DNA from: an uncultured bacterium
Lineage (GTDB): Bacteria > Bacillota > Clostridia > Oscillospirales > Oscillospiraceae
Reading direction: 5' to 3'
Assembly (NCBI GenBank): GCA_948469375.1
Contig: CAOKLO010000011.1
Location: 37,283 to 61,282, forward strand
Length of the DNA: 24,000 bases
Shown here one piece after another: positions 2,586 to 24,000 of this stretch. Numbering within the stretch: the first letter of the stretch is position 1; each line of letters begins with the position of its first letter. The notes under the pieces are model-generated. The model was not told the origin of the DNA and did not search any database. It saw nothing but the letters and a program-made list of their open reading frames with translations. Position numbers and translations under genes: made by a program.

Positions 2586-2587
2586 CG

Positions 2588-2613
2588 GTCAGGCGGGGTT
2601 ACTCCCGCCTGAC
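2588..2613. terminator. Bidirectional hairpin between convergent genes
   Basis: 10-bp stem GTCAGGCGGG / CCCGCCTGAC with loop GTTACT, followed by a T-rich run. It overlaps the last codons of the minus-strand ORF. Confidence 0.55.
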
Positions 2614-2834: not shown

Positions 2835-2907
2835 GCCGTTGTCCCTCGCTTCCGGTTTTTCCCATTATAGCACAGATTTTATCGAAATGGAATGGAGGAA
2901 TCTCAAC

Positions 2908-3825: not shown

Positions 3826-3827
3826 CC

Positions 3828-4166: not shown

Positions 4167-4191
4167 TCAACAACTTCAATACCGACTTCCA

Positions 4192-4217
4192 GGGGAGCGG
4201 CCATCGCTCTCCTTTTT
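4192..4217 (+). terminator. Rho-independent terminator after mobC
   Basis: Stem GGGGAGCG / CGCTCTCC (one G-U pair), loop GCCAT, then TTTTT. Confidence 0.6.
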
Positions 4218-4339
4218 CATTTCTCATTTCTGACAAGTTTGGAGGGAACTGCCATGCCTCCGCGCATCCGTGGCCCCCCTGGGGGAGCTACGCCCATTTC
4301 CAAACCCTATCAAACATCAAATTTTAAGGAGGAATTTCC

Positions 4340-7345: not shown

Positions 7346-7352
7346 CCGCACA

Positions 7353-7385
7353 GCCGGGGCCGGGTTATCTGGCCCCGGCGTTTTT
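7353..7385 (+). terminator. Terminator or attenuator between the adhesin and sortase genes
   Basis: 9-bp GC stem GCCGGGGCC / GGCCCCGGC followed by TTTTT. Confidence 0.65.
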
Positions 7386-7401
7386 GATAAGGAGACTGAC
7401 T

Positions 7402-8163
7402 ATGCGTATCAATCCCAGAAGATTTTTTGAGATTTTCTTCCTCGCGCTGCTGTGTGTCTGCCTGCTGATGCTCTGGTGGTACGGTACAGAGTGCTGGAGG
7501 GCGGGACAGCTTCACCAGGAGGCGGCGCTGCTAGCAGGCATCCCCGACCGTGCCTCCGATACATCAGAGGTGCTGTCTGACGGAACAAGCGCCGGGGCCG
7601 TCTCCGTTGGCCTGGACCTGTCCCCGCTGCGGGAGGTCAACGCCGACGTGGTGTGCTGGATCGAGATTCCCGGCGTTCTCTCCTATCCCGTCCTCCAGGG
7701 GGAGGACAATGCCTACTACCTCTCCCACGCCTGGGACGGCGAGGCGAACGCGGCGGGGGCCGTCTTCCTGGACTACCGGGCCAGCGCCGGTCTTACAGAT
7801 TTTCACACGCTCCTGTACGGTCACAGGATGCGAGACGGGTCCATGTTCGGCAGCTTGAAGCAGTACAGTGATGTCGGCTTCTGGCAGGAACATCCCAGCG
7901 TCTGCCTCTCCGATGAGGACGGCATCCGGCGGTATGATATTTTCGCCGCCTACGAAGTGGGGGTGGCGGAGATCGTCTACCGGCAGGACCTCTCCAGTGC
8001 GGAGGACCGGCTGGAGCTGATCCGGTTCGGCCTCGACAACTCCGTCATTGAGACGGGCATCGTGCCAACCGTCACGGACACGATCATCACCCTCTCCACC
8101 TGCACCGGCAGCGGACACAATGCCCGCTGGGTGGTCCAGGCGGTGCGGTGCCAGGAGGCATGA
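7402..8163 (+). CDS. srtB: Class B sortase
   Basis: SD AAGGAG at 7389-7394 precedes ATG 7402. N-terminal TM anchor. Catalytic-type motifs LLYGHRM (His), TLSTC (Cys) and a C-terminal ARWVVQAVR (Arg). Confidence 0.85.
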   Translation: MRINPRRFFEIFFLALLCVCLLMLWWYGTECWRAGQLHQEAALLAGIPDRASDTSEVLSDGTSAGAVSVGLDLSPLREVNADVVCWIEIPGVLSYPVLQGEDNAYYLSHAWDGEANAAGAVFLDYRASAGLTDFHTLLYGHRMRDGSMFGSLKQYSDVGFWQEHPSVCLSDEDGIRRYDIFAAYEVGVAEIVYRQDLSSAEDRLELIRFGLDNSVIETGIVPTVTDTIITLSTCTGSGHNARWVVQAVRCQEA

Positions 8164-8234
8164 CCGCCGCATCCTTGCAATTTTTCCGATGCTCCTGTAT
8201 GCTGATCTCAACAAATCGACAAGGAGTGATTGGA

Positions 8235-8522
8235 ATGAGGCTATTGCTGAAGGTCCTGGCTGCGCCGGTGATTGTGGCGCTGACGGTGTTCGTCTGGCTG
8301 TGCGTGGGAGTAGTCTACTGCGCCGGGATGGTGATGAGCGTGGCGGGGTGGATAGCGGCCCTCCTGGGCGTGGCGGTGATGCTGACCTACTCCGTCAAAA
8401 ACGGCATCGTCCTCCTGGTGATCGCGTTCCTGCTCAGCCCCATGGGACTGCCTGCGGCGGCGCTGTGGCTGCTGGGGAAGGTCCAGGATGTGCGGTACTT
8501 CATCCAGGATGCAGTATACTAA
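8235..8522 (+). CDS. Small multi-pass membrane protein (95 aa)
   Basis: AAGGAG at 8221-8226 precedes ATG 8235. Three hydrophobic segments are visible in the translation. It may belong to the small CD1845-like ICE membrane proteins (from memory, unverified). Confidence 0.55.
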   Translation: MRLLLKVLAAPVIVALTVFVWLCVGVVYCAGMVMSVAGWIAALLGVAVMLTYSVKNGIVLLVIAFLLSPMGLPAAALWLLGKVQDVRYFIQDAVY

Positions 8523-9849: not shown

Positions 9850-11250
9850 ATGTCCCTGCACACCGGCAAGGACCGGACTATGGGAAAGGCAATCAGCACC
9901 ATCATCGACTATGTGGAGAACCCGGACAAGACGGACGGCGGCAGGCTGATCTCCAGCTACCAGTGCGACAGCCGGATCGCGGACGCGGAGTTCCTGATGT
10001 CCAAACGGCAGTACGCCGCCAAGACCGGACGGCGGCGCGGGGCCGATGATGTGATTGCCTACACCATCCGGCAGTCCTTCGTCCCCGGCGAGATCACGCC
10101 GGAGGAAGCGAACCGCCTGGGCCGGGAGCTGGCAATGCGCTTTACCAAGGGCAACCACGCGTTTATCGTCTGCACTCACATCGACAAACGGCATGTTCAT
10201 AACCACATCATCTGGAATTCCACCGCTCTGGACCACTCCCGGAAGTTCCGGGACTTCCTCGGTTCCGGGAAAGCGGTGCGGCGGCTCAGTGACACCATCT
10301 GCGTTGAGAACGGCTACTCCATCGTGGAGAATCCCCAGCGGCGGGGCAAGAGCTACGACAAGTGGCAGGGGGACAAGCCGCCCTCTCACCGGGACCGGCT
10401 CCGCATGGCGATTGATGCCGCCCTCGCACGGAAACCCGCTGACCTGGAGGCGCTGCTGAACCTCCTGCGGGAGGCCGGAATCGAAGTGTCCCCACGGGGC
10501 AAATCCATCCGGCTGAAAGCGCCGGGACAGCAAAAATTTGTCCGCCTGGACGCGGACAGCATGGGCGAGGACTACGGCATTGACACGCTCCTGGCCGTCC
10601 TTTCCGGGGAGAAGAAGCATACGCCGCGCACAAAAAATATCCACCGCGCAGACCCGCCAAAGGTGAATCTGCTGGTGGATATTCAAGCAAAGCTCCAGGC
10701 CGGAAAGGGCGCGGGGTACGCACGGTGGGCCAAAACCTTCAACCTCAAACAGATGGCCCAGACCCTCAACTATCTGACGGAGCACGGGCTTCTCAACTAC
10801 GCCGATCTCTCGGCAAAGACCTCTGCGGCTACCGACCGATACCATGAGCTGTCGGATCAGATCAAGGCGGCGGAAAAGCGCATGGCGGAGATCGCCGTGC
10901 TGAGATCGCACATCATCAACTACGCCAAGACCCGTGATGTATACGTGGCCTACCGTAAGGCCGGATACTCTAAAAAATTCAAGGCGGAGCATGAGGCGGA
11001 GATACTGCTGCATCAGGCGGCAAAGAGTTTTTTCAATGAATCCGGGCTGAAAAAGCTGCCCACAATCAAGAGCTTGCAGGCCGAATACGCCGCACTCCTG
11101 GCAGAAAAAAAGACGGCATATGCCGACTACCGCAAGGCGCGAGACGAGATGAAGGAGCTGCTGACCGTCCAGGCCAACGTGGACCGGCTGATGGGCTACG
11201 ATGAACAGAAGCGGCAGCAGGAGGCGGTCCGCCAGGAGGAACACCGCTGA
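9850..11250 (+). CDS. MOB relaxase / mobilization nuclease (Relaxase-MobA/VirD2 type); the true start is probably upstream at a non-ATG codon (9832 or 9829)
   Basis: Histidine triad HIDKRHVHNHIIWNS, an N-terminal YVENPDKTDGG motif, and a C-terminal coiled region. SD AGGAGGTG at 9817-9824 lies 25 nt from ATG 9850 but 7 nt from ATC 9832. Confidence 0.9.
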   Translation: MSLHTGKDRTMGKAISTIIDYVENPDKTDGGRLISSYQCDSRIADAEFLMSKRQYAAKTGRRRGADDVIAYTIRQSFVPGEITPEEANRLGRELAMRFTKGNHAFIVCTHIDKRHVHNHIIWNSTALDHSRKFRDFLGSGKAVRRLSDTICVENGYSIVENPQRRGKSYDKWQGDKPPSHRDRLRMAIDAALARKPADLEALLNLLREAGIEVSPRGKSIRLKAPGQQKFVRLDADSMGEDYGIDTLLAVLSGEKKHTPRTKNIHRADPPKVNLLVDIQAKLQAGKGAGYARWAKTFNLKQMAQTLNYLTEHGLLNYADLSAKTSAATDRYHELSDQIKAAEKRMAEIAVLRSHIINYAKTRDVYVAYRKAGYSKKFKAEHEAEILLHQAAKSFFNESGLKKLPTIKSLQAEYAALLAEKKTAYADYRKARDEMKELLTVQANVDRLMGYDEQKRQQEAVRQEEHR

Positions 11251-12641: not shown

Positions 12642-13182
12642 AAATACTGCGGCCTTTACCGGCCACCGCCCCAGCAAACTGCCCTGGCGTTATGATGAGG
12701 CTGATCCCAGGTGCATAGCACTGAAGGAGGTCCTTACGGAGCAGATCAGACTGCTGGCAGACAGGGGCGTGACCACATTCCTCTCAGGTATGGCCCTGGG
12801 GACCGATCTCTGGTGCGCCCAGATTGTTCTGGACCTTCGCAAAGAGAATCCCGCCCTACAACTTCACTGTATTCTTCCCTGCGAGGGGCAAAAAAATAAG
12901 TGGCCTGCATCAGAACAGGAGCGGTATCGCTCTATCCTGAAGCAGGCCGATGATGTGGTTTTTGTAGAACGGGAGTATACCCGGAACTGTATGCTGGAGC
13001 GGAACAGATATATGGTTGATAACTCTTCGATTCTTCTTGCCGTCTACAACGGAGTTCGGCGCAGCGGCACGGGGGCAACCGTGAGCTATGCAAAAAAGTG
13101 TGACCGGGAGATCATTGTCATTGAGCCTGCGTCTCAAAGCATCTCTTCTGTCGGAGGAAGGTATCAAGGCCAACCGTCTTAG
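12631..13182 (+). CDS. SLOG-superfamily DUF1273 / YpsA-like protein
   Basis: GGAGG at 12617-12621 precedes ATG 12631. Motifs FTGHRPSKLP, FLSGMALGTDLWCAQIVL and SGTGATV are typical of DUF1273/YpsA. Confidence 0.8.
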   Translation: MNYENTAAFTGHRPSKLPWRYDEADPRCIALKEVLTEQIRLLADRGVTTFLSGMALGTDLWCAQIVLDLRKENPALQLHCILPCEGQKNKWPASEQERYRSILKQADDVVFVEREYTRNCMLERNRYMVDNSSILLAVYNGVRRSGTGATVSYAKKCDREIIVIEPASQSISSVGGRYQGQPS

Positions 13183-13188
13183 CCCTCT

Positions 13189-13208
13189 GCAAACAGTTTG
13201 CTTTTTTT
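13189..13208 (+). terminator. Weak terminator-like hairpin
   Basis: GCAAA-CAG-TTTGC followed by TTTTTTT. The stem is short, so termination is probably leaky. Confidence 0.35.
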
Positions 13209-13288
13209 ACAATCTTATGCCACAATGGCTTTGATCTCCATTGAGGGCAGGAGAAAATTAACGCCTGTCCTCTGCAAAGGAGGCTACC

Positions 13289-15676
13289 ATGAAGATCGTG
13301 AGCTGGAATGTAAATGGAATTGTCGCCTGCCGGAGAAAAGGCTTCTTGCAGTTTCTGAGGGACACACAACCGGATGTGATGTGCTGCCAGGAAATCAAAA
13401 CCCGCTGCGTACTGCGCACACCGGGTTATCATCAATTCTGGAATCCCGCAAAACGTCCAGGCTATTCCGGGACGCTTACTCTGACAAAACTGCTGCCGCT
13501 TTCTTGTTCGCTTGGTATGGGCATTGAAAAGTTTGACGATGAGGGAAGACTAATCACGCTTGAATACAAAAATTTTTTTGTTGTCAATGTATATGTCCCC
13601 AGTATTCATACCGGCTCAAAGCCGGAAAGGCCGGATTTTCGCTTGGAGTGGGACAATGCGCTGCGGGAGTATGTCTCGAAACTGAAAAAGCCCGTAGTCT
13701 TAGCGGGGGACTTTAACGCTACACGCAGCTACATAGACACCTATCCTGAGAACGGGAAAAATGAACCAGAACCGCCCTTTTTTTATTCAGAAGTGCGGGA
13801 GGGACTGGAGCGGCTCCTATCTACTGGATTAGTGGACGCTTTTCGGGTACTATACCCACGGCGAACGGGGGCCTATACATGGTGGGGGCCGAAGAACAAC
13901 GACCGGGCCGAAAACCGTGGTTCGCGATTGGACTACTTCCTTGTGTCTGGTGAAATACTTTCTTCTGTGCGAAGCGTTAAGTTTCACAAAGATACTCACG
14001 GTTCGGATCACTGCCCGATCTCTATGCTTTTCAATCCGGTTACGCCGAAGCTGGAAATGAGCGACAGAGATATGGTGGCAATATGGGCCTCCATCAACTG
14101 GGATACGCTGGAGGAAGTTCTTCTTTCGATGCAGCAGGATTTGGCCTATGCCGCATACAACCGGGAATGGGACAAGGTTGACCGTCTCCAAAATGAGCTG
14201 GTCCGCTCCTGGGCGGCGCGGGCGCTGGCTGTTCGCTCTACCCTGGACAAAAGCACCTTCCCAGGAGTTGACGGTGTTCGATGGACTACGGACGCACAGA
14301 AAGCGCGGGCCGCAGTGTCCCTGACCTCCAGAGGCTACCGCCCACTCCCATATCTGCATATGGAGCTGGAAGAAAACGGGAAGACGCGAACAAATCTTCT
14401 TCCCGCAATGCGGGATAAGGCCATGCAGATTTTATATTCCTACGCCCTTGACCCTGTTGCGGAATCTACAGCGGATCGCAAGTCCTTTTTCGCAAGAAGA
14501 GGACGCTCGGCGCTGGATGCACACGCATACCTCAGTCGAGACTTGAGTGGTGATAATCCACCAGACTATGTAGTCCTTATAGATGTACAATCTTTTTACG
14601 ACACGGTGGTTCATGACTGGCTGATAAAAAACATCCCAATGGATAAAACGATGCTGCGGAAGTTTTTGAAGGCTGGCATGGTAAAAGAGGGAGAGATGTT
14701 CCCAACGGACAAAGGGATGTCCATGGCCTCCAGTCTATCGTCTATCCTGGGGAATATGATCTTGGACGGTTTGCAGTCTTATCTCTACGACCATCTTTAC
14801 CCCTCTGGGGGCGTTGACTATAGAAACGGAAATCTCCACAGATTCGCTGATGATATGGCTATTACCGCATATGGCTATGAACAGGCGGAGAAGATTATGG
14901 CGATTACCTCTGAATTTCTGGCACAGCGGGGCCTGCGGGTACACCCTGATAAATCCTGCATTGCAAATGTCAATGCAGGATTTGACTATATCGGCCGGAA
15001 CTATAAACGTGTTGACGGCGTTCTGACAGTGACACCGGCAGACAGCTCTATCAGGAAAATAGAACATGAGTTGGAAAAACTCATCATGAACTTTACAGGA
15101 ACCCAGAGAGCTTTGATTGAGAAGATCAATCAAAAGCTGAAAGGATGGGGGAGCTATCACCGCGTGGAGGATTCCTACATGGAATTCCGCCATATTGACG
15201 CTGTTGTTGAGGGGCTGCTGGTGAAAAAGATGTGTGAAAAATATCCCAGCTGGCACCGGCAGACCGTTTTGAATAAGTTCTGGACAAAAGATGGAATGAC
15301 ATATGTTTTTATACTGCCGACCGACCCGTCCGTCAGGGTTGTTCAGCTAGCGCAGTTGCCGATTGTGCGTCACAAACCATGCAGAGTTAAGTTCAACCCC
15401 TATTTGGACCAGGATTATCATATCTACCTCAAGCACCGGCGCGATGCGCAAAAAAGCAACGGAGCTTATCGGGCGGTATGGACCCGTCAGAGTGGACGCT
15501 GTGCCTATTGCAATCAAAGGATGCTTGCCGATCAAGAGATAGAACTTGTAGAAAAAAACATTGGGCAGGGATGGAAAATAAAAAACCTGATCTACATACA
15601 CCGGCGTTGCAGCTATCAGGTATGTTTTTCTTCAAACGGAGCGGAGGGAGATCCTATTGACGCAGGGAACTTATGA
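13289..15676 (+). CDS. Fusion protein: ExoIII/ExoA/APE-type (EEP) endonuclease + group-II-intron-like reverse transcriptase + degenerate C-terminal CxxC/HNH-like finger
   Basis: SD AAAGGAGG at 13276-13283.
- EEP signature: SWNVNG, CQEIK, NVYVP, GDFNAT, RLDYFLVS, GSDHCP.
- RT blocks: FPGVDGVRW, LIDVQSFYD, GMSMASSLSSILGNMILD, FADD (nt 14843-14854), FDYIGRNY.
- Thumb/X: KLKGWGSYHR.
- C-terminal finger: CAYC (from nt 15500) ... IHRRC.
- One uninterrupted frame of 795 aa. Confidence 0.85.
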   Translation: MKIVSWNVNGIVACRRKGFLQFLRDTQPDVMCCQEIKTRCVLRTPGYHQFWNPAKRPGYSGTLTLTKLLPLSCSLGMGIEKFDDEGRLITLEYKNFFVVNVYVPSIHTGSKPERPDFRLEWDNALREYVSKLKKPVVLAGDFNATRSYIDTYPENGKNEPEPPFFYSEVREGLERLLSTGLVDAFRVLYPRRTGAYTWWGPKNNDRAENRGSRLDYFLVSGEILSSVRSVKFHKDTHGSDHCPISMLFNPVTPKLEMSDRDMVAIWASINWDTLEEVLLSMQQDLAYAAYNREWDKVDRLQNELVRSWAARALAVRSTLDKSTFPGVDGVRWTTDAQKARAAVSLTSRGYRPLPYLHMELEENGKTRTNLLPAMRDKAMQILYSYALDPVAESTADRKSFFARRGRSALDAHAYLSRDLSGDNPPDYVVLIDVQSFYDTVVHDWLIKNIPMDKTMLRKFLKAGMVKEGEMFPTDKGMSMASSLSSILGNMILDGLQSYLYDHLYPSGGVDYRNGNLHRFADDMAITAYGYEQAEKIMAITSEFLAQRGLRVHPDKSCIANVNAGFDYIGRNYKRVDGVLTVTPADSSIRKIEHELEKLIMNFTGTQRALIEKINQKLKGWGSYHRVEDSYMEFRHIDAVVEGLLVKKMCEKYPSWHRQTVLNKFWTKDGMTYVFILPTDPSVRVVQLAQLPIVRHKPCRVKFNPYLDQDYHIYLKHRRDAQKSNGAYRAVWTRQSGRCAYCNQRMLADQEIELVEKNIGQGWKIKNLIYIHRRCSYQVCFSSNGAEGDPIDAGNL

Positions 15677-15837
15677 ATGAGGATATAGCCTGAGTTTCGG
15701 TATATATCATCTCGCATATTCCCCGAAACCGTTGGAAATTGTGCGCTCAGAGCAAAAGCGGGCATGTTTGGAAATAAGGCCGTAATCCCTTGCAAGATAA
15801 CGGATTCAGAAAAAACAACGAAACTCGGACATAGGTC

Positions 15838-15866
15838 TTGACTTCCAAAGTAAGTTCTGATAAAAT
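15838..15866 (+). promoter_or_regulatory. Extended -10 promoter of the RiPP operon
   Basis: TTGACT at 15838-15843, a 17-nt spacer ending in TGA, then TAAAAT at 15861-15866. Confidence 0.55.
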
Positions 15867-15944
15867 GATACAGAAATTTACAGAAGAGTATAATCAGCAC
15901 AAAATATCCACAGTAAAACACAGTGCAAGAGAGGGGGGGGTATA

Positions 15945-16214
15945 ATGAAATGTCGTATTGATTGCAAGGTATGTTGGCAACGAATAAAAAGTCAAATTTA
16001 TATCATCCGGGATGATAAGTTTATTCTTTTGAATGAATCGGCTTCATTGATATGGATGGGGATTTATCAAGGAAAGACTACTACAGAAATCGCCAAAGAT
16101 TTATACAACCTCTATGGTACTGATTTCTCTGTTATTTTAGATGATGTAAGTGGAACAGTAAATGATTTAATTTCTGCCGGGGTATTAACTTATGGAAATG
16201 TTCAATTCTCTTAA
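15945..16214 (+). CDS. PqqD-family peptide chaperone (stand-alone RRE)
   Basis: 89 aa. The pattern LLNESASLIWMGIYQGKTTTEIAKDLYNLYG...DDVSGTVNDLISAGVL matches the PqqD/RRE fold signature. Confidence 0.8.
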   Translation: MKCRIDCKVCWQRIKSQIYIIRDDKFILLNESASLIWMGIYQGKTTTEIAKDLYNLYGTDFSVILDDVSGTVNDLISAGVLTYGNVQFS

Positions 16215-17211
16215 GGAGATATCTAGTTATACGCAAGCTCACCAAGTGTTATGGAATGCGCAAATTGAACTTCTTACATTGTGTAATTTTGCTTGCCAAC
16301 ATTGCTATATACCTAATAGAACATCCAAAGGACTTCCTTTGTTGGTAATTAAAGACTTAGCTACTGCATTTTTTAACATGGGTACATTTAATATAACATT
16401 AACCGGCGGAGAGCCCTTATTGCGAGATGATATATTCGAAATTATTGAAGAATTTCGGAATAAGGGATTAAGAGTTAAGCTTTATAGCAATGCGTCTTTA
16501 CTAGATAGAGATAAATGTATACGATTAAAGGAATTGGGAATTAGTCAGTTTTCAACAACTATATTTTCCCTAAATCCTCAAATTAATGATTGTATTACAT
16601 GCAAAAATGATTCTTTAAATTTTATTCTACCTAATATAGCATTGTTGGAAGAATTATGTGTGCCAGTTCAAATAAAAATGCCAATTCTGAAAATGAATTA
16701 CGAGTCTTATGAAGAGCTTAAAACATTCTGTGGTGCGCATAATTATAGCTTTTTTCCAAGTCCTAATATTTCCCCCAAAACCGACGGTGATTCTTCACCA
16801 CTGAAATTTGAACTAGCTGAACGAGAATTTGCGAAAATGATTCGCAAAATAGATGCAGAACACACAAAAAATGTGACTGGGGATCAAAATGCTTTTAGAA
16901 AAGAAGATATCATTTGTCATTCGTTGAATAATTCGGTTTTTATTAATAGTATCGGCGATGTTTTTCCCTGTATCTCATGGCCAGTAAAGTTAGGGAATAT
17001 TTTTGAAAAGTCAATAGCGGAAATTTGGAACACTTCTGATGTATTACAATACTTAAGGAGCCTAAAGAAATCACATATGAAGTTCTGCGGAAAATGTGAA
17101 TATTCTACGCATTGTACAGTTTGTCCGGGAGATTCCATGATGGATGGTGATATGTTGGGGTGTTCACATCTACAAAAAAAATGTGCAAAAGCCATTATGG
17201 GACTTATATAG
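16192..17211 (+). CDS. Radical SAM / SPASM-domain peptide maturase
   Basis: CNFACQHCY (Cx3Cx2C). SPASM signature: CHSLNNSVFINSIGDVFPC (Cx12Gx4C), CGKCEYSTHCTVC, and a distal Cys. Overlaps the PqqD-like gene by 23 nt. Confidence 0.9.
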   Translation: MEMFNSLKEISSYTQAHQVLWNAQIELLTLCNFACQHCYIPNRTSKGLPLLVIKDLATAFFNMGTFNITLTGGEPLLRDDIFEIIEEFRNKGLRVKLYSNASLLDRDKCIRLKELGISQFSTTIFSLNPQINDCITCKNDSLNFILPNIALLEELCVPVQIKMPILKMNYESYEELKTFCGAHNYSFFPSPNISPKTDGDSSPLKFELAEREFAKMIRKIDAEHTKNVTGDQNAFRKEDIICHSLNNSVFINSIGDVFPCISWPVKLGNIFEKSIAEIWNTSDVLQYLRSLKKSHMKFCGKCEYSTHCTVCPGDSMMDGDMLGCSHLQKKCAKAIMGLI

Positions 17212-17549
17212 GAAATGAAAGACGTAAGTTCATTTTACAAATCTTAAGTCCCAAATAGCAAATAATTTGGAAAAGGGAGAGAATGTGTAGATTAGAAATT
17301 TTGGTACAGCTATAGTAACGTTAGTCCCTCTATAGAACTGATCTTGGCCTTCAACCACGACCGAAATTTCTTGCCATTTCGCTTTTTCTGAGCTTCTCGT
17401 AGTATATTATAGGGATGAGCAAACGCGAGTTTTGCAAAAGCACAGTGCAGTGGTGTTTATTTTCTCTGCAAGTGCTATATGTCGTATCATATCGTAAGCA
17501 AATTCTAGTTTTGCCTGTCCCTATAAAATTTTAAAAGGAGGTGTAAAAC

Positions 17550-17663
17550 ATGAAGTATGAAAAGCCTGCAATTCTCGTCAACAAAACGATGCCGCGTGCG
17601 GCTGTTGGGGCCGATTGTGGTCACGGCAACAAGTGCAATGGCCCGAAAGATGATCATGACTAG
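17550..17663 (+). CDS. RiPP precursor peptide, 37 aa: MKYEKPAILVNKTMPRAAVGADCGHGNKCNGPKDDHD
   Basis: It falls below the length cut-off of the ORF track. SD AAGGAGGTG at 17535-17543 lies 6 nt before the ATG. Stop is TAG at 17661-17663. It sits between the maturase and the exporter genes. Confidence 0.7.
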   Translation: MKYEKPAILVNKTMPRAAVGADCGHGNKCNGPKDDHD

Positions 17664-17674
17664 GTAAAGGAGAT

Positions 17675-17710
17675 GGCAGTCAGTATATAAAATACTGACT
17701 GCCAGTTTTA
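17675..17710 (+). terminator. Hairpin with T-run directly after the precursor gene (terminator or attenuator)
   Basis: 11-bp stem GGCAGTCAGTA / TACTGACTGCC, 7-nt loop, then AGTTTTA. Confidence 0.6.
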
Positions 17711-17713
17711 AAT

Positions 17714-19498
17714 ATGATAAAGGTTGTACTTAAAAATCTTCGCTATGTTCGCTATGCGATACAAGCTGACAAAATCAGTGCCTGGTCAATTATTTTGCTG
17801 AGTATGGCGATAAGCAGTATGTCAGCAGCGAAAATACTTGCAATTGGGCAATTACTTGATGATGTTGCCTTGTCACAATCCTTTGGATTCAGACGCATGA
17901 TTGTGAATACGTGCCTCGTCGTTTTCGTTTATTTGATGGAATACGTATTGTCTGCACTTCAGAACTATCTAAGGTTCAGAATTTGCATTCGCTTGAACAA
18001 CCAGATGGAAGATAAATTTTTCCTCAAGCTATCTGTTGTTCAGTATTCTTTACTGGAAGATAAAAAGAACAGCGATTTGATTTTTCATGTAAAAGATGGC
18101 ATTGAAAAAAGATTTTCGGACGGGTTTTCGCATGTGATAGAATTCTTTTCTTTTGCTTTTAGAGCTGCAGGAGTACTTGGGGTAATAATCACAAAGAATA
18201 TAAGCACAGGTATGATTCTTCTGCTACTCTTTGTTAGCTTGGGCCCCTTATATCAAAAATTAGGGGAGGTCAACTATCAAGCATATGCGGAAGCGAATAA
18301 AGCATTTCGCCGTGCCAAAAGCTATCTCCAAATCCTTTCAGACCGGGAGTACGCGAATGAGCGAGAAGTATTTGGCTATGATGCCTTTTTTAATAAAAAG
18401 TGGAGAACTTACTATCAAACCGCAATCGAAAAAGAAAGAGGTGCATCTAAACAGAATCATTTTAAGATTCTATTGGTAACTATTACCATAACATTTATGA
18501 CTGCATTATTGAGTTGTATCATGATTCCTGCATTGCTCAGAGAATCGCTCTCTCTTGGAGTTTATGTGCTGGTTGTGACACAATTGTTCAATTTGGTACA
18601 TTTTATGTCGTGGAATTTTTCTGATATCACGGAAAATCTTTCAGAAAATGCATTATATCTGGACGATTTTGATCGGTTTATGGATTTGAACGATACTACG
18701 CGGGCGGAGGGAGGAATCCTGCCTTCTCAAAAGCACATAAACATCCGAATCGAAGACCTGTCCTTTCGTTATCCAGGCTGTACGGACTATGCATTAAAGA
18801 ACGTTTCTTTTGAATTCAAAGAGGGAGTACATTATGCCATAGTCGGAAAAAATGGCGCTGGAAAAACTACGCTTGTAAAATTGCTGTTGGGTCTATATGA
18901 CGAATATGACGGGCAGATTCTGATCAATGGCGTAGACATCCGAACGCTTTCAAAGGCCACTCTCTCTTCCGTTTTTTCCGTAGTATTCCAGGATTATGGG
19001 AGATACGCGCTGACACTAAAAGAAAATGTTTTTCTGACGGATTTTGACGATCCACAGAAAGCGGCACAAGCGGAACGTATTTTGTCTCAACTGGGCTTTT
19101 GGGAGGGCCTTTGCCATCAGGAAAACAGAATGGATATTAGTCTCGGTAAACTTGACGAGGGCGGTATCGACTTATCGGGAGGACAGTGGCAAAAGCTTGC
19201 TATTGCAAGGGGGCTCCTGTCCGATGCTCTTGTATACATATTGGATGAGCCCTCCAGTTCGCTGGACCCAATCAGTGAAAGGCATTTATACGATCTATAT
19301 GACAAGGTTTTTAAAGAATATACAACCATTACGATTACCCATAGATTAGGAAATACAAAGGGGCAGGATGAAATTTTGGTTTTAGATGGTGGAACGCTTG
19401 CGGAATTTGGGTCCCATGAAGCATTGATGAAACGGCATTCCATATACTATGAAATGTTTACCCACCAAAGGAGTTGGTACCATGCGGAAAGTTCATAA
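17714..19498 (+). CDS. ABC exporter, fused permease and ATPase
   Basis: N-terminal TM region. Walker A GKNGAGKTT, signature LSGGQWQKLA, Walker B VYILDEPSS. No obvious SD before the ATG. Confidence 0.9.
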   Translation: MIKVVLKNLRYVRYAIQADKISAWSIILLSMAISSMSAAKILAIGQLLDDVALSQSFGFRRMIVNTCLVVFVYLMEYVLSALQNYLRFRICIRLNNQMEDKFFLKLSVVQYSLLEDKKNSDLIFHVKDGIEKRFSDGFSHVIEFFSFAFRAAGVLGVIITKNISTGMILLLLFVSLGPLYQKLGEVNYQAYAEANKAFRRAKSYLQILSDREYANEREVFGYDAFFNKKWRTYYQTAIEKERGASKQNHFKILLVTITITFMTALLSCIMIPALLRESLSLGVYVLVVTQLFNLVHFMSWNFSDITENLSENALYLDDFDRFMDLNDTTRAEGGILPSQKHINIRIEDLSFRYPGCTDYALKNVSFEFKEGVHYAIVGKNGAGKTTLVKLLLGLYDEYDGQILINGVDIRTLSKATLSSVFSVVFQDYGRYALTLKENVFLTDFDDPQKAAQAERILSQLGFWEGLCHQENRMDISLGKLDEGGIDLSGGQWQKLAIARGLLSDALVYILDEPSSSLDPISERHLYDLYDKVFKEYTTITITHRLGNTKGQDEILVLDGGTLAEFGSHEALMKRHSIYYEMFTHQRSWYHAESS

Positions 19499-21275
19499 GA
19501 AGACGTATAACATACGAAGAGTGTTTGGGGAGGTTGTGAGGGTTTCCCCTCTTCAATTTTTTCTACAATACGTCCTGGCTGTTGTGAGTTCTGTCTTCCT
19601 AGGCTTATTTATCGTACAATTGCAAAATGTATTTGATCATGCGGCAATCGTAGTTGAGAGCGCGTCTGCGGATGGCGTCTGGAGCCTGCTTTGTTCCTTA
19701 CTCATCCTGTTCCTGTACAAAGCTGGCTCGGAGAGCTTGGAAATCGCCAACGGATATCTTGGAAATGATTTTTATAACCGTTGCGCAGCATATTTTCTGG
19801 ATCTATATAATCAAAATATCGCCAAGATGCGCGCAATCACATTTGAAGAGAATGACAATTTAAAGCTCTATCGCAACGCATTGACGGGAGCAACTTCAGC
19901 TAGAGGAATGTTGCATGTCATCATGGATATATTTACACTTTATATCCCTTATTTCCTCACGATCATTTTCTATTTGGCAAAACAGGACGCCAGCCTGCTT
20001 GCCATTGTCCCACTTGTCGCCATACCGATCTTTATTACGAATCAAATTAAGAAGAAGAATTACCAGAGACTACATAAACATACGATCCATCCAAAACGGA
20101 AAAAAGAAGAATACACAAAATACCTTTCCGAATTTCCGTTTCTTAAGGAAGTTCGTGTCAAGGAGGCGTTCCGGTTCTTTTATGGAAAATATCTGTGCGC
20201 AAGGTCAGAATACAACAAACTTTGTCTGTCCACAAATGATCAAGAATTCATGCTAAACCTTGGCACAAAAATGATTACCTTGCTTGGTTTTATAACGATT
20301 TTGGGCCTTCTGATCGAGCGGCTAGCTACAGGGGCAATCAGCATTGGTGCCTTTGGCGCTATCTTTTATTCGTTGGACGACATGTATAGTTTGATGGAAG
20401 AAATGCTTATATCGAGAATCGAAACATATCATAAGGGGCTACCTGCTTTGAAATCATTTATTCAATTTGTGAATGGCGCATATACAGAGCAGGGGGAAGC
20501 AACAGGAACGGCGGGGCGCATTCCCTTTAAAAAGATGTCGTTGGAAAGCATTTCATTTATTTATCCAAATACAACTCGAATGGTCCTCAAAAATATCAGC
20601 TTTACCATTCATCGGAATGATAAAATCGCAATCGTAGGCTATAACGGGAGCGGGAAGAGCACATTGGCCAAAATCTTGCTTGGGCTATACAGTCCAACCG
20701 AGGGCACCATTTTGATAAATGACGACCCGGGTATAAGATCCGGCCCTCAAAATGCCAGCGTCATGTTTCAGCAATTTAATCGCTACAAAGAGACAGTTTT
20801 TAATAATATCTGGATCAGTGAGGCAACGGGCGATGAATCGGCTGGGGAGCAGGCGAAAAAAATAGCTTCTGAACGATTGAGGCAAATAAACCTGAATCAT
20901 TCCGTGCACGTAGAAGATACGCTGGACATATTATGCGCACGTGAATTTGGAGGCATCGACCTTTCCGGTGGACAATGGCAAAAATTAGCGACCGCGAGAA
21001 TGCTATATCGCGACCGTGACTTTATAGTATTGGACGAGCCGACAGCTGAAATCGATCCAGTATCAGAATCTCAGATGTTTCGTCTGTTTGAGAGCGAAAT
21101 GAGGAATCGGACGGCAATCATTATTACGCACAGAATGACCTCCATTCGTTTCTGTAACAAAATAATTGTCTTGCGGGATGGAGCGGTCGATGCCATCGGA
21201 GACCACGAAACTTTAATGAAAACTTCAGACCTTTACTACGCGTTGTATCACTCGATTGAGGAGAGATACCATTGA
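19482..21275 (+). CDS. ABC exporter, fused permease and ATPase (second subunit)
   Basis: AAAGGAG at 19467-19473 precedes ATG 19482, which overlaps the upstream gene by 17 nt. Walker A GYNGSGKST, signature LSGGQWQKLA, Walker B FIVLDEPTA. Confidence 0.9.
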   Translation: MRKVHKKTYNIRRVFGEVVRVSPLQFFLQYVLAVVSSVFLGLFIVQLQNVFDHAAIVVESASADGVWSLLCSLLILFLYKAGSESLEIANGYLGNDFYNRCAAYFLDLYNQNIAKMRAITFEENDNLKLYRNALTGATSARGMLHVIMDIFTLYIPYFLTIIFYLAKQDASLLAIVPLVAIPIFITNQIKKKNYQRLHKHTIHPKRKKEEYTKYLSEFPFLKEVRVKEAFRFFYGKYLCARSEYNKLCLSTNDQEFMLNLGTKMITLLGFITILGLLIERLATGAISIGAFGAIFYSLDDMYSLMEEMLISRIETYHKGLPALKSFIQFVNGAYTEQGEATGTAGRIPFKKMSLESISFIYPNTTRMVLKNISFTIHRNDKIAIVGYNGSGKSTLAKILLGLYSPTEGTILINDDPGIRSGPQNASVMFQQFNRYKETVFNNIWISEATGDESAGEQAKKIASERLRQINLNHSVHVEDTLDILCAREFGGIDLSGGQWQKLATARMLYRDRDFIVLDEPTAEIDPVSESQMFRLFESEMRNRTAIIITHRMTSIRFCNKIIVLRDGAVDAIGDHETLMKTSDLYYALYHSIEERYH

Positions 21276-21333
21276 CTTTCTTTGATTAGAGCAATCGACG
21301 CAATATCCAACATCCAGCGCAAGTGAACGAGGA

Positions 21334-22443
21334 ATGACAATCGGAAGGAAAGACCATGCCGAGTGCCTTATGGACAACCAAGATCAGTTTTTCTTTTACG
21401 CGAATAGTCACTTGCGGAGGGTGGATTTCATCTTGGTCCACATCTCTCAATGGGGTGAGATACGGATGGCTCACTATATGAAAGTCAGCACGGAAATCTA
21501 CCAAGTGTATCTCAAGTATATAGCTCCAGAGGACATACACGTCTATTCTATTGACGAGGTGTTCATGGATGTTACAAACTATCTTGCCACCTACGGCCTA
21601 TCACCCCGGCAGCTTGCAATGAAGATGATTCTTGATGTTCTTGAGACAACCGGCATTACCGCTACAGCGGGCATCGGGACGAACCTATATCTCTGTAAGA
21701 TCGCAATGGACATTTGGGCAAAGCACATTCAACCGGACGAAAACGGTGTCCGCATTGCTGAACTGGATGAGATGAGCTATCGCCGCAACCTGTGGGACCA
21801 TCGGCCACTCACCGACTTCTGGCGTGTAGGCAAAGGCTACGCAAAGAAGCTGGAGGCCAACGGACTTTACACGATGGGGGACATTGCGCGGTGTTCCACC
21901 GGCAAGCCTACGGAATATTACAATGAGGATTTGCTATATAAGCTCTTTGGCGTGAATGCAGAATTGTTGATAGATCACGCCTGGGGATGGGAACCTTGTA
22001 CTATTGGTGACATCAAGGCATATAGGCCAGAGAGCAGCAGTACCGGTTCAGGGCAAGTATTACAGTATCCATATCCGTTCGCAAAGGCCAAGCTAGTAGT
22101 ACATGAGATGGCTGACCAGCTATCGCTTGACCTTGTAGACAAGGGCCTTGTGACCGATCAGTTGACGCTGACCATTGGATATGACATTGATAATTTGCGA
22201 GATCAGGAGATCAGTAGCACTTATCAGGGAGATGTAACCGTAGACCGGTATGGTCGCGCCGTACCCAAACAGGCCCACGGAACAGAAACTATGGATGTAT
22301 ACACGTCCTCTACCAAGCAGATCGTTCGTGCGGCACTGGCGCTTATGATGATATTATCAACCTTCCCCATCATGTCTCAGACCGGCATCCGCAAATGCCA
22401 ATTAGGGATAGGGCGGCGCAGTTCTCGCCGTTTGCGGCGCTAA
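21334..22443 (+). pseudogene. Y-family (DinB/UmuC-like) DNA polymerase remnant, truncated at both ends
   Basis: Recognisable similarity starts near RMAHYMKVSTEIY (about nt 21466). It includes the SIDEVFMDVT catalytic block, the ATAGIGTNLYLCKIA motif and an HhH region. The N-terminal block carrying the first catalytic Asp is absent. The C-terminus runs into unrelated residues after TSSTKQIVRAALAL. Confidence 0.7.
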
Positions 22444-22739
22444 CCGGATATGAGAGAGAAGTGAAAGAAGCCGCAAGGCTTACTGAAAAAAGAATTGAGC
22501 TCAGTTCGGAGCAAAAAGAAATATTGAATGAGCAGTTGCGCCTGTTGGAAGACGGGGCGCTACAAGGGACCGTTGCATCATTTACGTTCTTCAAGCCAGA
22601 TGATCGGAAAGATGGTGGAGCCTATGTTACTGTAGCAGGGAGGATAAAGAAAATCGACCTGGTAGAACGTAATATCATTCTTCTTGATGGAACCATAGTC
22701 CCCATTGATGCACTTTATCAAATTTACAGCGAGGCGTGA
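22395..22739 (+). CDS. YolD-like protein (Y-family polymerase accessory family); its N-terminus may be damaged
   Basis: RAAQFSPFAALTGYE motif. The same frame is open upstream and reads YDDIINLPHHVSDRHPQ, but with no start codon. Confidence 0.7.
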   Translation: MPIRDRAAQFSPFAALTGYEREVKEAARLTEKRIELSSEQKEILNEQLRLLEDGALQGTVASFTFFKPDDRKDGGAYVTVAGRIKKIDLVERNIILLDGTIVPIDALYQIYSEA

Positions 22740-22785
22740 AAAGGCCCCAGTTCAGCAGGTAACTGACCAATATCGACCTATAATG

Positions 22786-22815
22786 AAAAAAGGAGCAGAA
22801 ATGCTCCTTTTTTTC
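22786..22815. terminator. Bidirectional rho-independent terminator
   Basis: AAAAAAGGAGCA-GAAA-TGCTCCTTTTTTT. Confidence 0.7.
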
Positions 22816-23071
22816 TTTGTTCGACAAAATTTGACAAAAGAATTCAACAGAATCATATATAATGTTAACAAGTTTAGATGCTAATCTTTCACAGAAATAA
22901 CGCTTGCGTGGTTTCTATGGCCGATCAGTTCTTCACTAGATCCATTAGTGTGTAGGCCATAACCAGCAGGACGTTTTTCAAAACAGAAAGGTTTAGCATG
23001 AGCTTGTCCCCTCTAGGTCAGGGGCAATATGCCGTTGATCTAATCGCGTACACTCTTTTCAATAGAATTCA

Positions 23072-23125
23072 AAAAAGGAAAAGGCCACAAGAGACTAGCA
23101 GGTCTCTTGTGGCCTTTTCCTTTTT
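23072..23125. terminator. 24-bp perfect hairpin flanked by A and T runs (strong bidirectional terminator or structured RNA)
   Basis: AAAAAGGAAAAGGCCACAAGAGAC - TAGCAG - GTCTCTTGTGGCCTTTTCCTTTTT. Confidence 0.7.
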
Positions 23126-23355
23126 CGACATTTACTTCCGAAATTTGACAGCATTCGACAAGCAATGCTTCTGTAAACCGGCATACAACGGCTGTTGTTT
23201 TCCCAGAATATGCTTGTGTTGTAGACGCACGGCAAAAAAAAATAATAGAAGACAGAAAAATTTGCATTCCTGCGGAGATTGGTATCTCTGCCGTGGCCCT
23301 CCTGATTGTTGATGCTTCACCCCGAACACAACCATCACACAATCAGGAGGAAATC

Positions 23356-23856
23356 ATGTTTGATAAACATAGCGACTACGCACTGAACAAGCTGGACCCG
23401 GAGGCCATTGTCTGTCCCAGCGCCACCGGCATACATATCCGGCTGACCCGTGAGGACTTCGCCAGCGAGGAAGACTTTCTTTACTGGAAAAAACTGTCCG
23501 ACGGAGACTACAAGGACATTGAGAGTGCGGGGCGCGGCTATTACGATTACTGCATTTCCTTGACCGAGGCCAGGAAATCGACCAGCACATCTGCCGAGGA
23601 TGCGTTTCTTGCTCCGCTGATAGCAGCAGAACAGAGAGAGCAGAGGATCGCGCTGTTAAAGAAAATCAAGGATGCTCTGACGGAAACGCAGTACCGCCGC
23701 TTGTGGATGTACTGCGTGGAAGAAATGAACGAGGCCGAGATTGCGCAAGCCGAACACGTTGGACAACCGCGAGTTTGCCGCTCCCTCTGCCGTGCAAAAA
23801 TTATTCTGAAAAAAATTTTTTCAGAGGGCAGCAAAACAGGGGATAAAAACGGCTGA
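23356..23856 (+). CDS. Sigma-70 family (region 4) ICE regulatory sigma factor
   Basis: SD AGGAGG at 23345-23350 precedes ATG 23356. The C-terminal region-4 HTH reads LTETQYRRLWMYCVEEMNEAEIAQAEHVGQPRVCRSLCRAKIILKK. Confidence 0.75.
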   Translation: MFDKHSDYALNKLDPEAIVCPSATGIHIRLTREDFASEEDFLYWKKLSDGDYKDIESAGRGYYDYCISLTEARKSTSTSAEDAFLAPLIAAEQREQRIALLKKIKDALTETQYRRLWMYCVEEMNEAEIAQAEHVGQPRVCRSLCRAKIILKKIFSEGSKTGDKNG

Positions 23857-24000
23857 TTTTCTGTGTTAGGTGAAAGGCGCGTTTCCCCATAACCTTTCGA
23901 GCACCTATAAAACTGAATACACGGTATTGCGGGTACAGAAACCATGCAGCAGCGGGACAGGGCGCGCCGCCAGGACAGCAGCTTGTGAAAGGGGGACCAG

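What the first reader, a model, noticed from the sequence alone, without database searches (positions are those of the whole stretch)
15677..21333. Abruptly AT-rich radical-SAM RiPP island inserted into ICE cargo
**What the sequence shows**
- Composition drops from about 60% GC in backbone lines to about 30-38% GC in the island lines I counted.
- The cluster is compact. In order it has an extended -10 promoter, a stand-alone PqqD-like RRE, a short (339 aa) rSAM enzyme with a full SPASM signature, a 37-aa precursor, and two fused TMD-NBD ABC exporter genes.
- There is no leader peptidase (neither exporter has a C39 domain), no immunity gene and no regulator.
- The right edge coincides with the missing 5' end of a Y-family polymerase gene. 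The left edge abuts the RT gene.
- I could find no recombinase, IS element or flanking repeat that explains the acquisition.

**Why it matters**
A horizontally mobile, ICE-borne thioether-type (sacti/ranthipeptide-like) or other rSAM-modified peptide could serve as a competition or signalling factor spread by conjugation.
Basis: partly seen in the sequence, partly recalled or inferred. Interest (0 to 1): 0.75.

Follow-up and report, generated by a model that had tools for sequence, protein, structure and literature searches.

The report
Mobile radical-SAM peptide cassette in ICE
A 5.8-kb low-GC block carrying a complete five-gene operon for a small radical-SAM-modified, exported peptide has replaced older cargo in a conjugative element of mouse-gut bacteria; the gene kit is an ordinary kind, but its peptide family has not been described.

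Summary
Window 15662-21464 (5.8 kb, 39.7% GC; flanks 48-50%, distal backbone 60%) is a foreign block. It carries a promoter-like site, a stand-alone PqqD-type recognition protein, a 339-aa radical SAM/SPASM enzyme, a 37-aa peptide gene followed by a hairpin, and two half-size ABC exporter genes.

A 99%-identical relative without the island (L124) and a syntenic relative (L119) show that it replaced older cargo. The replacement cut 152 codons off the neighbouring nuclease-RT gene and about 112 codons off the Y-family polymerase gene. There are no flanking repeats and no recombinase or IS inside.

The same gene set recurs at 36-67% enzyme identity in low-GC chromosomes. Each copy has a short peptide with a shared core, C-x(1-5)-C-[N/S]-G, and most have a [Y/F]-x-[K/S]-P leader. 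That makes the 37-aa ORF a genuine precursor.

No curated family (NCBIfam, Pfam) and no searched paper covers the enzyme clade or the peptide. Among solved structures the closest by family-profile sequence search is the thioether-forming SkfB; the fold search ranks SuiB first. Thioether crosslinking is therefore the best guess, but it is unproven.

Verdict: a real, intact, mobile RiPP cassette. It is an undescribed family of a well-known kind and is moderately interesting.

The parts
15662..21464 (.). Foreign low-GC island (5.8 kb), a replacement in the cargo slot between the RT and polymerase genes
   Evidence: 39.7% GC against 49.6% and 47.8% in the flanks. Identity to island-less L124 ends at 15661. 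Homology to the intact polymerase of L119 starts at 21465. Metagenome contigs L008-L010 break at 15622.
15838..15866 (+). Promoter-like site with extended -10 (TTGACT-17-TG-n-TAAAAT) upstream of the operon
   Evidence: 10 of 12 consensus matches plus TG. This is a consensus match only, and the number of such sites in the region is not above the shuffled expectation.
15945..16214 (+). Stand-alone PqqD-like RiPP recognition element (89 aa)
   Evidence: Pfam PqqD E=7.3e-9, 36.3 bits against a 23.4 cut-off. Weak match to lasso PqqD and PQQ PqqD. A homologous small protein precedes the rSAM gene in all relatives.
16192..17211 (+). Radical SAM/SPASM peptide maturase (339 aa), overlapping the PqqD gene by 23 nt
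   Evidence: Pfam Radical_SAM 9.8e-21 and SPASM 6.6e-13. All family-invariant residues are kept. AlphaFold model pLDDT 92. Best folds are SuiB, SkfB, CteB and PqqE. The family profile's best PDB sequence match is SkfB at 1.4e-33.
17212..17549 (+). 338-nt spacer that relatives lack (21-59 nt there). It holds two GCAAA-N7-TTTGC palindromes at 17419-17435 and 17498-17514.
   Evidence: (repeat D12). No Rfam match. Function unknown; possibly regulatory.
17550..17663 (+). Precursor peptide gene (37 aa): MKYEKPAILVNKTMPRAAVGADCGHGNKCNGPKDDHD
   Evidence: Strong SD (AAGGAGG) upstream. Orthologous peptides sit beside the rSAM homologues, with leader [Y/F]-x-[K/S]-P and core C-x(1-5)-C-[N/S]-G.
17674..17704 (+). 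Hairpin (13-bp stem, 5-nt loop, T-rich tail): a terminator or attenuator between the precursor and the exporter genes
   Evidence: also the only stable local element in the fold.
17714..19498 (+). ABC half-transporter 1 (TMD-NBD, 594 aa), no peptidase domain
   Evidence: Pfam ABC_tran 1e-29. Sub-threshold full-length alignments to MsbA, CydC and type I secretion exporters. Six hydrophobic segments.
19482..21275 (+). ABC half-transporter 2 (597 aa from the SD-preceded ATG; 608 aa if read from 19449), no peptidase domain
   Evidence: Pfam ABC_tran 1.4e-26. Start 19482 was used by gene callers on identical contigs and has AAAGGAG upstream.
13289..15676 (+). Left flank: ExoIII-like nuclease fused to a group-II-intron-like RT, truncated at its 3' end by the island (795 aa against 947-954 aa in relatives)
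21465..22347 (+). Right flank: Y-family polymerase remnant (residues ~113-406 of 507). It lacks the catalytic N-terminus and, in this window, also the C-terminus.

Best explanation
The island is a self-contained operon for a ribosomally made, enzymatically modified and exported peptide (a RiPP).

**Proposed mechanism**
- Transcription starts upstream of the PqqD gene.
- The stand-alone PqqD-like protein binds the leader of the 37-aa precursor through the conserved Y-x-K-P-x-hydrophobic stretch. It then presents the C-terminal core, C-G-H-G-N-K-C-N-G-P-K-D-D-H-D, to the radical SAM/SPASM enzyme.
- The enzyme uses a 5'-deoxyadenosyl radical and its auxiliary Fe-S clusters to modify the core. The most likely modification is one or two intramolecular thioether bridges from the two conserved cysteines, for example onto the invariant Gly or onto Asn.
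- The hairpin after the precursor gene lets precursor mRNA outnumber exporter mRNA.
- The two ABC half-transporters form a heterodimeric exporter that secretes the product. The leader is removed by an unlinked protease, or not at all.

**Origin**
- The cassette came from a low-GC Firmicute.
- It entered a variable cargo slot of a conjugative or mobilizable element by illegitimate recombination. This deleted the RT C-terminal domain, a response-regulator gene and the polymerase 5' end.
- It now spreads with that element in mouse-gut bacteria.

**Shown versus inferred**
- Shown: gene identities, cassette conservation, precursor conservation, junctions and spread.
- Inferred: leader-RRE binding, thioether chemistry, export, and biological role.
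For: **Domains**
-. Radical SAM and SPASM cysteines are invariant across 65 relatives.

**Cassette conservation**
- The same cassette occurs in L011, L115, L116, L117, L014, L018 and L016, at 36-67% enzyme identity and in matched low-GC contexts; chromosomal housekeeping neighbours are documented for L011, L016 and L117. L036 carries a matching peptide next to its rSAM homologue.

**Precursor**
- Precursors share C-x(1-5)-C-[N/S]-G and most share [Y/F]-x-[K/S]-P. The closest clade keeps [M/L]CG[H/G]GN[K/R]CNGPKD.
- A profile search of 5.8 billion proteins found only 16 peptide clusters. Several sit on contigs of the same length as the rSAM hits.

**Similarity to RiPP maturases**
- Family profile against PDB: SkfB 119 bits, then SuiB 70, PqqE 56, CteB 52, anSME 49.
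- The fold search ranks RiPP maturases first.

**Signals**
- Hairpin and promoter-like site.

**Foreign origin and junctions**
-.

**Spread**
- The exact rSAM protein is indexed in 565 collection blocks.
- Many contigs are 99.9-100% identical, several from mouse-gut samples, on two different backbones.
Against: - No curated family reaches its cut-off. The best NCBIfam partial hits are GeoRSP (112 of 400), AhbD (111 of 500) and NirJ2 (105 of 500), so sequence does not assign the chemistry.
- The core has only two Cys and no conserved acceptor apart from [N/S]-G, and the Cys spacing varies among clades.
- SuiB and PqqE, which form C-C bonds, are about as close in fold as the thioether enzymes.
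- There is no peptidase or immunity gene in the island.
- ABC1 lacks an obvious ribosome-binding site.
- Natural variants have lost the rSAM gene: L024 and L025 delete 16304-17477, and L027 deletes 16469-16945. The element therefore does not need the cassette.
Confidence: 0.7

Rival explanations
1. It is a RiPP cassette, but the enzyme installs something other than a thioether. Candidates are a C-C or ether crosslink, epimerisation, oxidation of Cys to formylglycine, or a reaction not yet described on the C-[N/S]-G motif.
For: - SuiB (Lys-Trp C-C) is the top fold match, and PqqE (C-C) and anSME (formylglycine) are close behind.
- No sactisynthase or ranthisynthase model reaches its cut-off.
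- The only invariant features are Cys and [N/S]-G.
Against: - The family profile's best sequence match by a wide margin is the sactionine-forming SkfB (119 bits against 70 for the next).
- The two cysteines are the most conserved core residues.
- The enzyme has the seven-Cys SPASM pattern (six invariant plus C324), which in CteB leaves one auxiliary cluster free to bind substrate Cys. That last point is from published knowledge and was not tested here.
Confidence: 0.25
2. It is not a secreted natural product but a peptide-derived cofactor or redox system, analogous to PQQ (PqqA/D/E) or mycofactocin (MftA/B/C). Alternatively it is a non-RiPP SPASM enzyme of the AhbD/NirJ type working with a CydDC-like thiol exporter.
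For: - A stand-alone PqqD plus a short SPASM enzyme plus a short peptide is the PqqADE / MftABC layout.
- The best NCBIfam partial hits include AhbD and NirJ2, and the ABC proteins hit CydC and CydD.
Against: - PqqE scores 49.7 of 381, MftC 60 of 265 and AhbD 111 of 500, all far below their cut-offs.
- There are no PqqB/C/F, MftD/E/F or heme-pathway genes in the island or in the relatives' cassettes.
- The peptide lacks E-x3-Y and a C-terminal V-Y.
- Two exporter genes are conserved in the cassette.
- The cassette sits on a mobile element with no metabolic partner genes.
Confidence: 0.04
3. The island is decaying, non-functional cargo carried passively by the element.
For: - rSAM-deleted variants circulate: L024, L025 and L027.
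- Both flanking genes are pseudogenes, and the polymerase remnant has suffered a further 314-nt deletion in this window.
- The 338-nt spacer is absent from relatives.
Against: - In the window all five ORFs are intact and keep every family-invariant residue.
- The intact version is identical in many samples.
- The apparent 263-aa 'truncated' rSAM on many contigs is a gene-calling difference on identical DNA.
Confidence: 0.1

Closest known systems
SkfB / sporulation killing factor system of Bacillus subtilis (sactionine-forming radical SAM maturase; PDB 6EFN)
   Same: - Best solved-structure relative of the family profile (E=1.4e-33).
- Radical SAM core plus a C-terminal Fe-S domain.
- Acts on a short Cys-containing peptide, in an operon that includes an ABC exporter.
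   Different: - SkfB has a fused N-terminal RRE and a single-cluster twitch-like domain; here the RRE is a separate protein and the full SPASM Cys set is present.
- TIGR04403 (SkfB) is not among the window protein's hits above 1e-20.
- The precursor is unrelated, and there is no SkfC-type protease/cyclase.
Ranthipeptide systems (CteB/SCIFF thermocellin; PapB/freyrasin; NxxcB)
   Same: - SPASM maturases from Firmicutes that make small thioether loops from Cys to a nearby residue such as Asp, Asn or Thr.
- The window's core contains C-x3-N, as do several clades.
- CteB is a good fold match.
   Different: - The PapB model scores 41 of 340.
- Those enzymes carry a fused RRE.
- SCIFF has six Cys; here there are two.
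- The C-x3-N spacing is not conserved across the family.
StsB-type sactipeptides with Cys-Gly sactionines (PMC10288494)
   Same: A Gly alpha-carbon as acceptor is precedented, and this family's only invariant non-Cys core residue is Gly.
   Different: - The StsB model scores 60 of 625.
- StsA has three Cys and three Gly in a hairpin; here the pattern is C-x(n)-C-[N/S]-G.
PqqA/D/E and MftA/B/C (stand-alone PqqD-type chaperone plus SPASM enzyme plus short peptide)
   Same: Same three-part architecture, with a discrete RRE and a short (~340 aa) SPASM enzyme.
   Different: - Below the family cut-offs (PqqE 49.7 of 381, MftC 60 of 265, PqqD 16.6 of 46).
- No tailoring genes.
- Exporter genes are present.
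- The acceptor motifs are absent.
Bacteriocin and RiPP operons carried on conjugative elements (for example nisin on Tn5276; my own background knowledge)
   Same: A peptide natural-product operon travelling as cargo of a conjugative element.
   Different: Different enzyme class (radical SAM, not LanB/C). No immunity or regulatory genes travel with it.

Membership tests
Radical SAM/SPASM RiPP gene cluster with RRE | CX3CX2C radical SAM cluster motif and radical SAM fold | tested here: met
   C31/C35/C38. Pfam PF04055 9.8e-21. Model pLDDT 92 with radical SAM fold matches.
Radical SAM/SPASM RiPP gene cluster with RRE | SPASM domain with the seven-Cys pattern for two auxiliary Fe-S clusters | tested here: met
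   PF13186 6.6e-13. Cysteines C242-x12-G-x4-C260, C299-x2-C302-x5-C308-x2-C311 and C324. Six are invariant in 65 relatives. The last spacing is x2 rather than the canonical x3.
Radical SAM/SPASM RiPP gene cluster with RRE | PqqD-like RiPP recognition element, fused or discrete | tested here: met
   Discrete 89-aa protein. PF05402 scores 36.3 bits against a 23.4 cut-off.
Radical SAM/SPASM RiPP gene cluster with RRE | Short precursor gene co-conserved with the maturase across divergent relatives | tested here: met
   Peptides of 29-53 aa with a shared core lie next to the rSAM homologue in L011, L014, L016, L018, L036, L115, L116 and L117. A profile search recovers only such peptides.
Radical SAM/SPASM RiPP gene cluster with RRE | The peptide is actually modified by the enzyme | not testable with these tools
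   Needs co-expression and mass spectrometry.
Sactipeptide | Maturase belongs to a known sactisynthase family (AlbA, SkfB, StsB and others) | tested here: not met
   AlbA 56.7 of 850 and StsB 60.3 of 625. The SkfB model is not hit by the window protein at 1e-20. SkfB is nonetheless the best PDB sequence relative.
Sactipeptide | Cys sulfur to alpha-carbon thioether in the product | not testable with these tools
   Chemistry cannot be read from sequence.
Ranthipeptide (SCIFF/PapB type) | Maturase matches the PapB/CteB-type models; precursor of the SCIFF or CX3D-repeat type | tested here: not met
   PapB scores 41.3 of 340. The precursor has two Cys and no NCBIfam or Pfam hit.
PQQ or mycofactocin pathway | PqqE or MftC equivalog, plus accessory genes and the E-x3-Y or C-terminal V-Y peptide | tested here: not met
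   PqqE 49.7 of 381, MftC 60 of 265 and PqqD 16.6 of 46. No accessory genes in the island. The peptide motifs are absent.
Non-RiPP SPASM enzymes (AhbD/NirJ heme enzymes, anaerobic sulfatase maturase) | Score above the family cut-off | tested here: not met
   AhbD 111.5 of 500 and NirJ2 105.3 of 500. anSME ranks below the RiPP maturases in both sequence and fold searches.
Integrative conjugative element | Relaxase and accessory mobilization protein | tested here: met
   PF03432 2e-30 at 9850-11250. NikA/MobC at 3828-4166.
Integrative conjugative element | Integrase or recombinase at the element end | tested here: met
   A 563-aa large serine recombinase lies ~2.4 kb beyond the window end on contigs identical to the window (L001, L019-L028). 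It is not inside the window.
Integrative conjugative element | Type IV secretion and coupling protein genes | not tested
   None lie in the 24-kb window. The upstream part of the element was not retrieved, so ICE against mobilizable element stays open.

The most novel reading that the evidence does not exclude
The C-x(n)-C-[N/S]-G peptides made by this uncurated SPASM clade may carry a crosslink or residue modification that fits neither sactionine nor ranthionine. That would make them a new RiPP class, here caught spreading by conjugation among gut bacteria.
Probability: 0.25. Interest if true: 0.65.

Novelty: new variant of a known kind. Interest (0 to 1): 0.45.

Why it matters
- Radical SAM RiPP operons are common and well understood in outline, and peptide operons on conjugative elements are known. 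The general picture is therefore ordinary.
- What is new is the family. No curated model or searched paper covers the enzyme clade, which has about 50 clusters at 50% identity below 1e-50 and 421 below 1e-30.
- The peptide family is rare: 16 clusters among 5.8 billion proteins.
- The core is very small (about 10-15 residues) and its chemistry is unknown.
- The five-gene kit is minimal, intact and portable. It is present in many mouse-gut metagenomes at near-identical sequence, so it is a convenient target for heterologous expression and for testing a role in gut competition or signalling.
- The island-less relatives give a clean natural before-and-after pair for studying how cargo is swapped in this element family.

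Tried and rejected
- **'Truncated' rSAM.** Many related contigs list a 263-aa or 290-aa rSAM, which I first read as widespread inactivation. L028 is 100% identical to the window over 11.6 kb, so this is only a different start-codon call. Real deletions exist only in L024, L025 and L027.
- **Plasmid and phage collections.** Megablast of 12978-24000 found nothing. An exact 45-mer of the precursor gene is absent from IMG/VR.
- **Rfam.** No match at gathering thresholds on the whole window, and only chance-level hits at E up to 1 on 15500-17800.
- **GTDB genome scan.** It gave only two in-family loci, an Oscillospiraceae MAG and an Anaerococcus MAG, so the host species of the window is not identified.
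- **PADLOC.** Only generic radical SAM core and ATPase matches, so this is not a known defence system.
- **Missing polymerase 5' end.** The ORFs listed in 15662-15944 show no polymerase-like translation by eye (no homology search was run), so I read the event as a deletion rather than a split gene.
- **Flanking repeats.** None found.
- **Precursor search.** It was repeated with a longer first sequence.
- **Literature.** Searches for the core strings and for related topics found no description of this family.

Full report
**1. What is in the sequence**

The composition profile shows a stepwise mosaic.

| Segment | Window coordinates | GC |
|---|---|---|
| Distal backbone | 1-8500 | 59.7% |
| RT module | 12978-15622 | 49.6% |
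| Island | 15623-21464 | 39.7% |
| PqqD plus rSAM | 15945-17211 | 33.5% |
| ABC genes | 17714-21275 | 41.5% |
| Precursor gene | 17550-17663 | 50.9% |
| Right flank | 21465-24000 | 47.8% |

The AT-rich block is therefore real. Its immediate neighbours are about 50% GC, not 60%.

On the + strand the block holds five genes:
- An 89-aa PqqD-family protein at 15945-16214 (Pfam 36.3 bits against a 23.4 cut-off).
- A 339-aa radical SAM/SPASM protein at 16192-17211. It has CX3CX2C at C31/C35/C38 and SPASM cysteines C242, C260, C299, C302, C308, C311 and C324.
- A 37-aa ORF at 17550-17663, preceded by AAGGAGG.
- Two TMD-NBD ABC half-transporters, at 17714-19498 and at 19482-21275 (or from 19449).

Neither ABC protein has a peptidase domain. 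No other ORF of note lies in the island. A promoter-like site with an extended -10 sits at 15838-15866. A 13-bp-stem hairpin at 17674-17704 separates the precursor from the exporters. Rfam finds nothing.

**2. The cassette is a conserved unit and the 37-aa ORF is a real precursor**

The word-indexed search for the rSAM protein returns about two dozen unnamed close relatives at 37-99% identity. An exhaustive HMMER search of 1.84 billion representatives gives about 50 clusters below 1e-50 and 421 below 1e-30. Only one 50%-identity cluster contains the window's clade.

Genomic contexts show the same gene set:

| Locus | rSAM identity to window | Gene set |
|---|---|---|
| L115 | 67% | PqqD, rSAM, small peptide, two ABC |
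| L011 | 59% | same |
| L116 | 45% | same |
| L117 | 36% | same |
| L014, L018 | 38-39% | same, with the peptide gene upstream of the PqqD-like gene |
| L016 | 36% | PqqD, peptide, rSAM, one ABC |

In L036 (34%) only the peptide next to the rSAM homologue was checked.

L011 sits between housekeeping genes: transketolase and rpe on one side, map and metG on the other. The relatives' cassettes lie in matched low-GC DNA of 26-43%.

The peptides are:
- Window: MKYEKPAILVNKTMPRAAVGADCGHGNKCNGPKDDHD
- L115: MIYEKPQILVSKNGPVNEIMCGHGNRCNGPKDSHSKQ
- L011: MKYEKPEVVVNSQKPDAEVMCGHGNKCNGPKDTHSSIM
- L116: MKKYVKPIVKVSKKPPITVMCGGGNKCNGPKDDHAIH
- L117 (core only): ...MCKGSTCNGR...
- L014: ...FYYCENTNNCNGR
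- L036 (core only): ...VCKKAACSGSSS...
- L016 (core only): ...RCRCSGSTTHGPGP...

The shared features are a [Y/F]-x-[K/S]-P leader motif in most clades (the L014/L018 clade lacks it) and a C-x(1-5)-C-[N/S]-G core. A profile of these peptides finds only 16 clusters among 5.8 billion proteins. Neither Pfam nor NCBIfam has a model for the peptide. No searched paper contains the core strings.

**3. What the enzyme resembles**

No NCBIfam equivalog is reached by the window protein or by 64 relatives. The best partial hits are GeoRSP (112 of 400), AhbD (111 of 500) and NirJ2 (105 of 500). PapB, AlbA, StsB, MftC and PqqE are all far below their cut-offs.

Against solved structures, the family profile matches SkfB best (1.4e-33, 119 bits). 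SuiB (70), PqqE (56), CteB (52) and anSME (49) follow.

An AlphaFold model (pLDDT 92) matches SuiB, SkfB, CteB and PqqE first, ahead of MoaA and anSME. The enzyme is therefore a RiPP-type SPASM maturase.

Three things make thioether formation the leading guess: the SkfB lead, the two conserved Cys, and the precedent for Gly acceptors (PMC10288494). None of them proves it.

**4. How the island sits in the element**

The window carries a relaxase, a NikA/MobC protein, a sortase, a thioester-domain adhesin, a DUF3849 protein and a helicase. Contigs identical to the window continue to a 563-aa serine recombinase about 2.4 kb past the window end. The module 12978-24000 occurs on two different backbones.

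Two island-less relatives define the junctions.
- **L124** is 99.1% identical to window 12688-15661 and then diverges. There the nuclease-RT gene runs on to 947 aa and is followed by a response-regulator gene.
- **L119** has the syntenic order YpsA-like, 214-aa ORF, nuclease-RT (951 aa), MmeI-type restriction-modification gene, response regulator, 111-aa ORF, intact Y-family polymerase (507 aa), 139-aa ORF, serine recombinase.
- Homology of L119 to the window stops at about 15623 on the left. It resumes at 21465, which is polymerase codon ~113.

The island (15662-21464) therefore replaced the RT C-terminal domain, the intervening cargo and the first ~112 polymerase codons, which include the catalytic motif.

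The polymerase remnant has also lost 314 nt in this window relative to L118. That deletion shows 7-nt microhomology at 22338-22344.

No repeats flank the island, and no recombinase or IS element lies inside it.

**5. Population picture**

The exact rSAM protein is indexed in 565 collection blocks. Most contigs are short and 99.9-100% identical, and several come from mouse-gut samples.

Variants exist that delete the rSAM gene: 16304-17477 in L024 and L025, and 16469-16945 in L027. The frequent '263-aa rSAM' annotation is a start-codon call on identical DNA, not a mutation.

**6. Verdict**

- The interpretation (a mobile radical SAM RiPP island) is supported.
- The chemistry and the role remain inferred.
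- It is an undescribed family within a familiar kind of system, and it is of moderate interest.

Noticed in passing
window 13289-15676 (full-length relatives: L124 602-3445, L119 1844-4699): A single ORF fuses an ExoIII-like endonuclease/exonuclease/phosphatase domain (xth model, 214 bits) to a group-II-intron-like reverse transcriptase with maturase and Cys-rich regions. This is a LINE-like domain order in a bacterial mobile element. Intact copies are 947-954 aa with an extra DUF7662 domain. Where the neighbours were examined they follow a YpsA/DprA-like gene (L119, L124, L126) and precede a response-regulator-like ORF (L124, L126, L130, L131), or precede an MmeI gene and then the regulator in L119. 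No intron RNA was found by Rfam.
   Followed up: partly
window 14896-15508: 24 of the 26 mismatches between the window and the 99%-identical L124 cluster in this 600-nt stretch of the RT gene, while 12688-14895 has none. This suggests a recombination tract just left of the island junction.
   Followed up: no
window 21465-22739: The Y-family polymerase remnant lacks codons 1-112. Relative to L118 it also lacks a further 314 nt (7-nt microhomology at 22338-22344). That deletion removes the polymerase C-terminus and the first ~21 codons of the downstream 135-139-aa ORF, leaving the 114-aa ORF at 22395-22739.
   Followed up: yes
window 17212-17549: A 338-nt spacer between the rSAM and precursor genes is absent from relatives, where the gap is 21-59 nt. 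It contains two GCAAA-N7-TTTGC palindromes 79 nt apart, which could be operator sites. The L024/L025 deletion ends inside it, at 17477.
   Followed up: partly
window 12978 (backbone junction); L001, L020, L029, L032, L034: Everything right of 12978 (RT, island, polymerase remnant, and on to the serine recombinase) is found at 99.99% identity on a second, unrelated backbone. That backbone carries ParB, an A_ENA protein and a 1337-aa protein. The right-hand module is therefore exchanged between elements.
   Followed up: partly
L119 5113-7905: In the syntenic relative, the slot between the RT and the polymerase holds an MmeI-family restriction-modification gene. The slot thus takes different accessory cargo in different elements.
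   Followed up: partly
L014 2002-7430 and L018 4234-7639: In a more distant clade the precursor (…FYYCENTNNCNG[R/K]) lies upstream of the PqqD-like gene. It is preceded by a subtilisin-like S8 peptidase fused to DUF1611 and by a small PP-binding-like protein. L014 adds a B12-binding radical SAM enzyme, and in L018 an agrB / response regulator / histidine kinase set lies ~1.3 kb upstream of the cluster. These are possibly a leader peptidase and quorum-sensing control, both of which the window's cassette lacks.
   Followed up: no
L011 3365-6194: The chromosomal relative carries a second, unrelated small-peptide / radical SAM (416 aa) / ABC cluster 4.5 kb upstream of the cassette.
   Followed up: no
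P0243 (variant of window 17550-17663): A precursor variant in 11 member sequences reads through the stop codon: ...DDHDQVKEMAVST, 46 aa.
   Followed up: no
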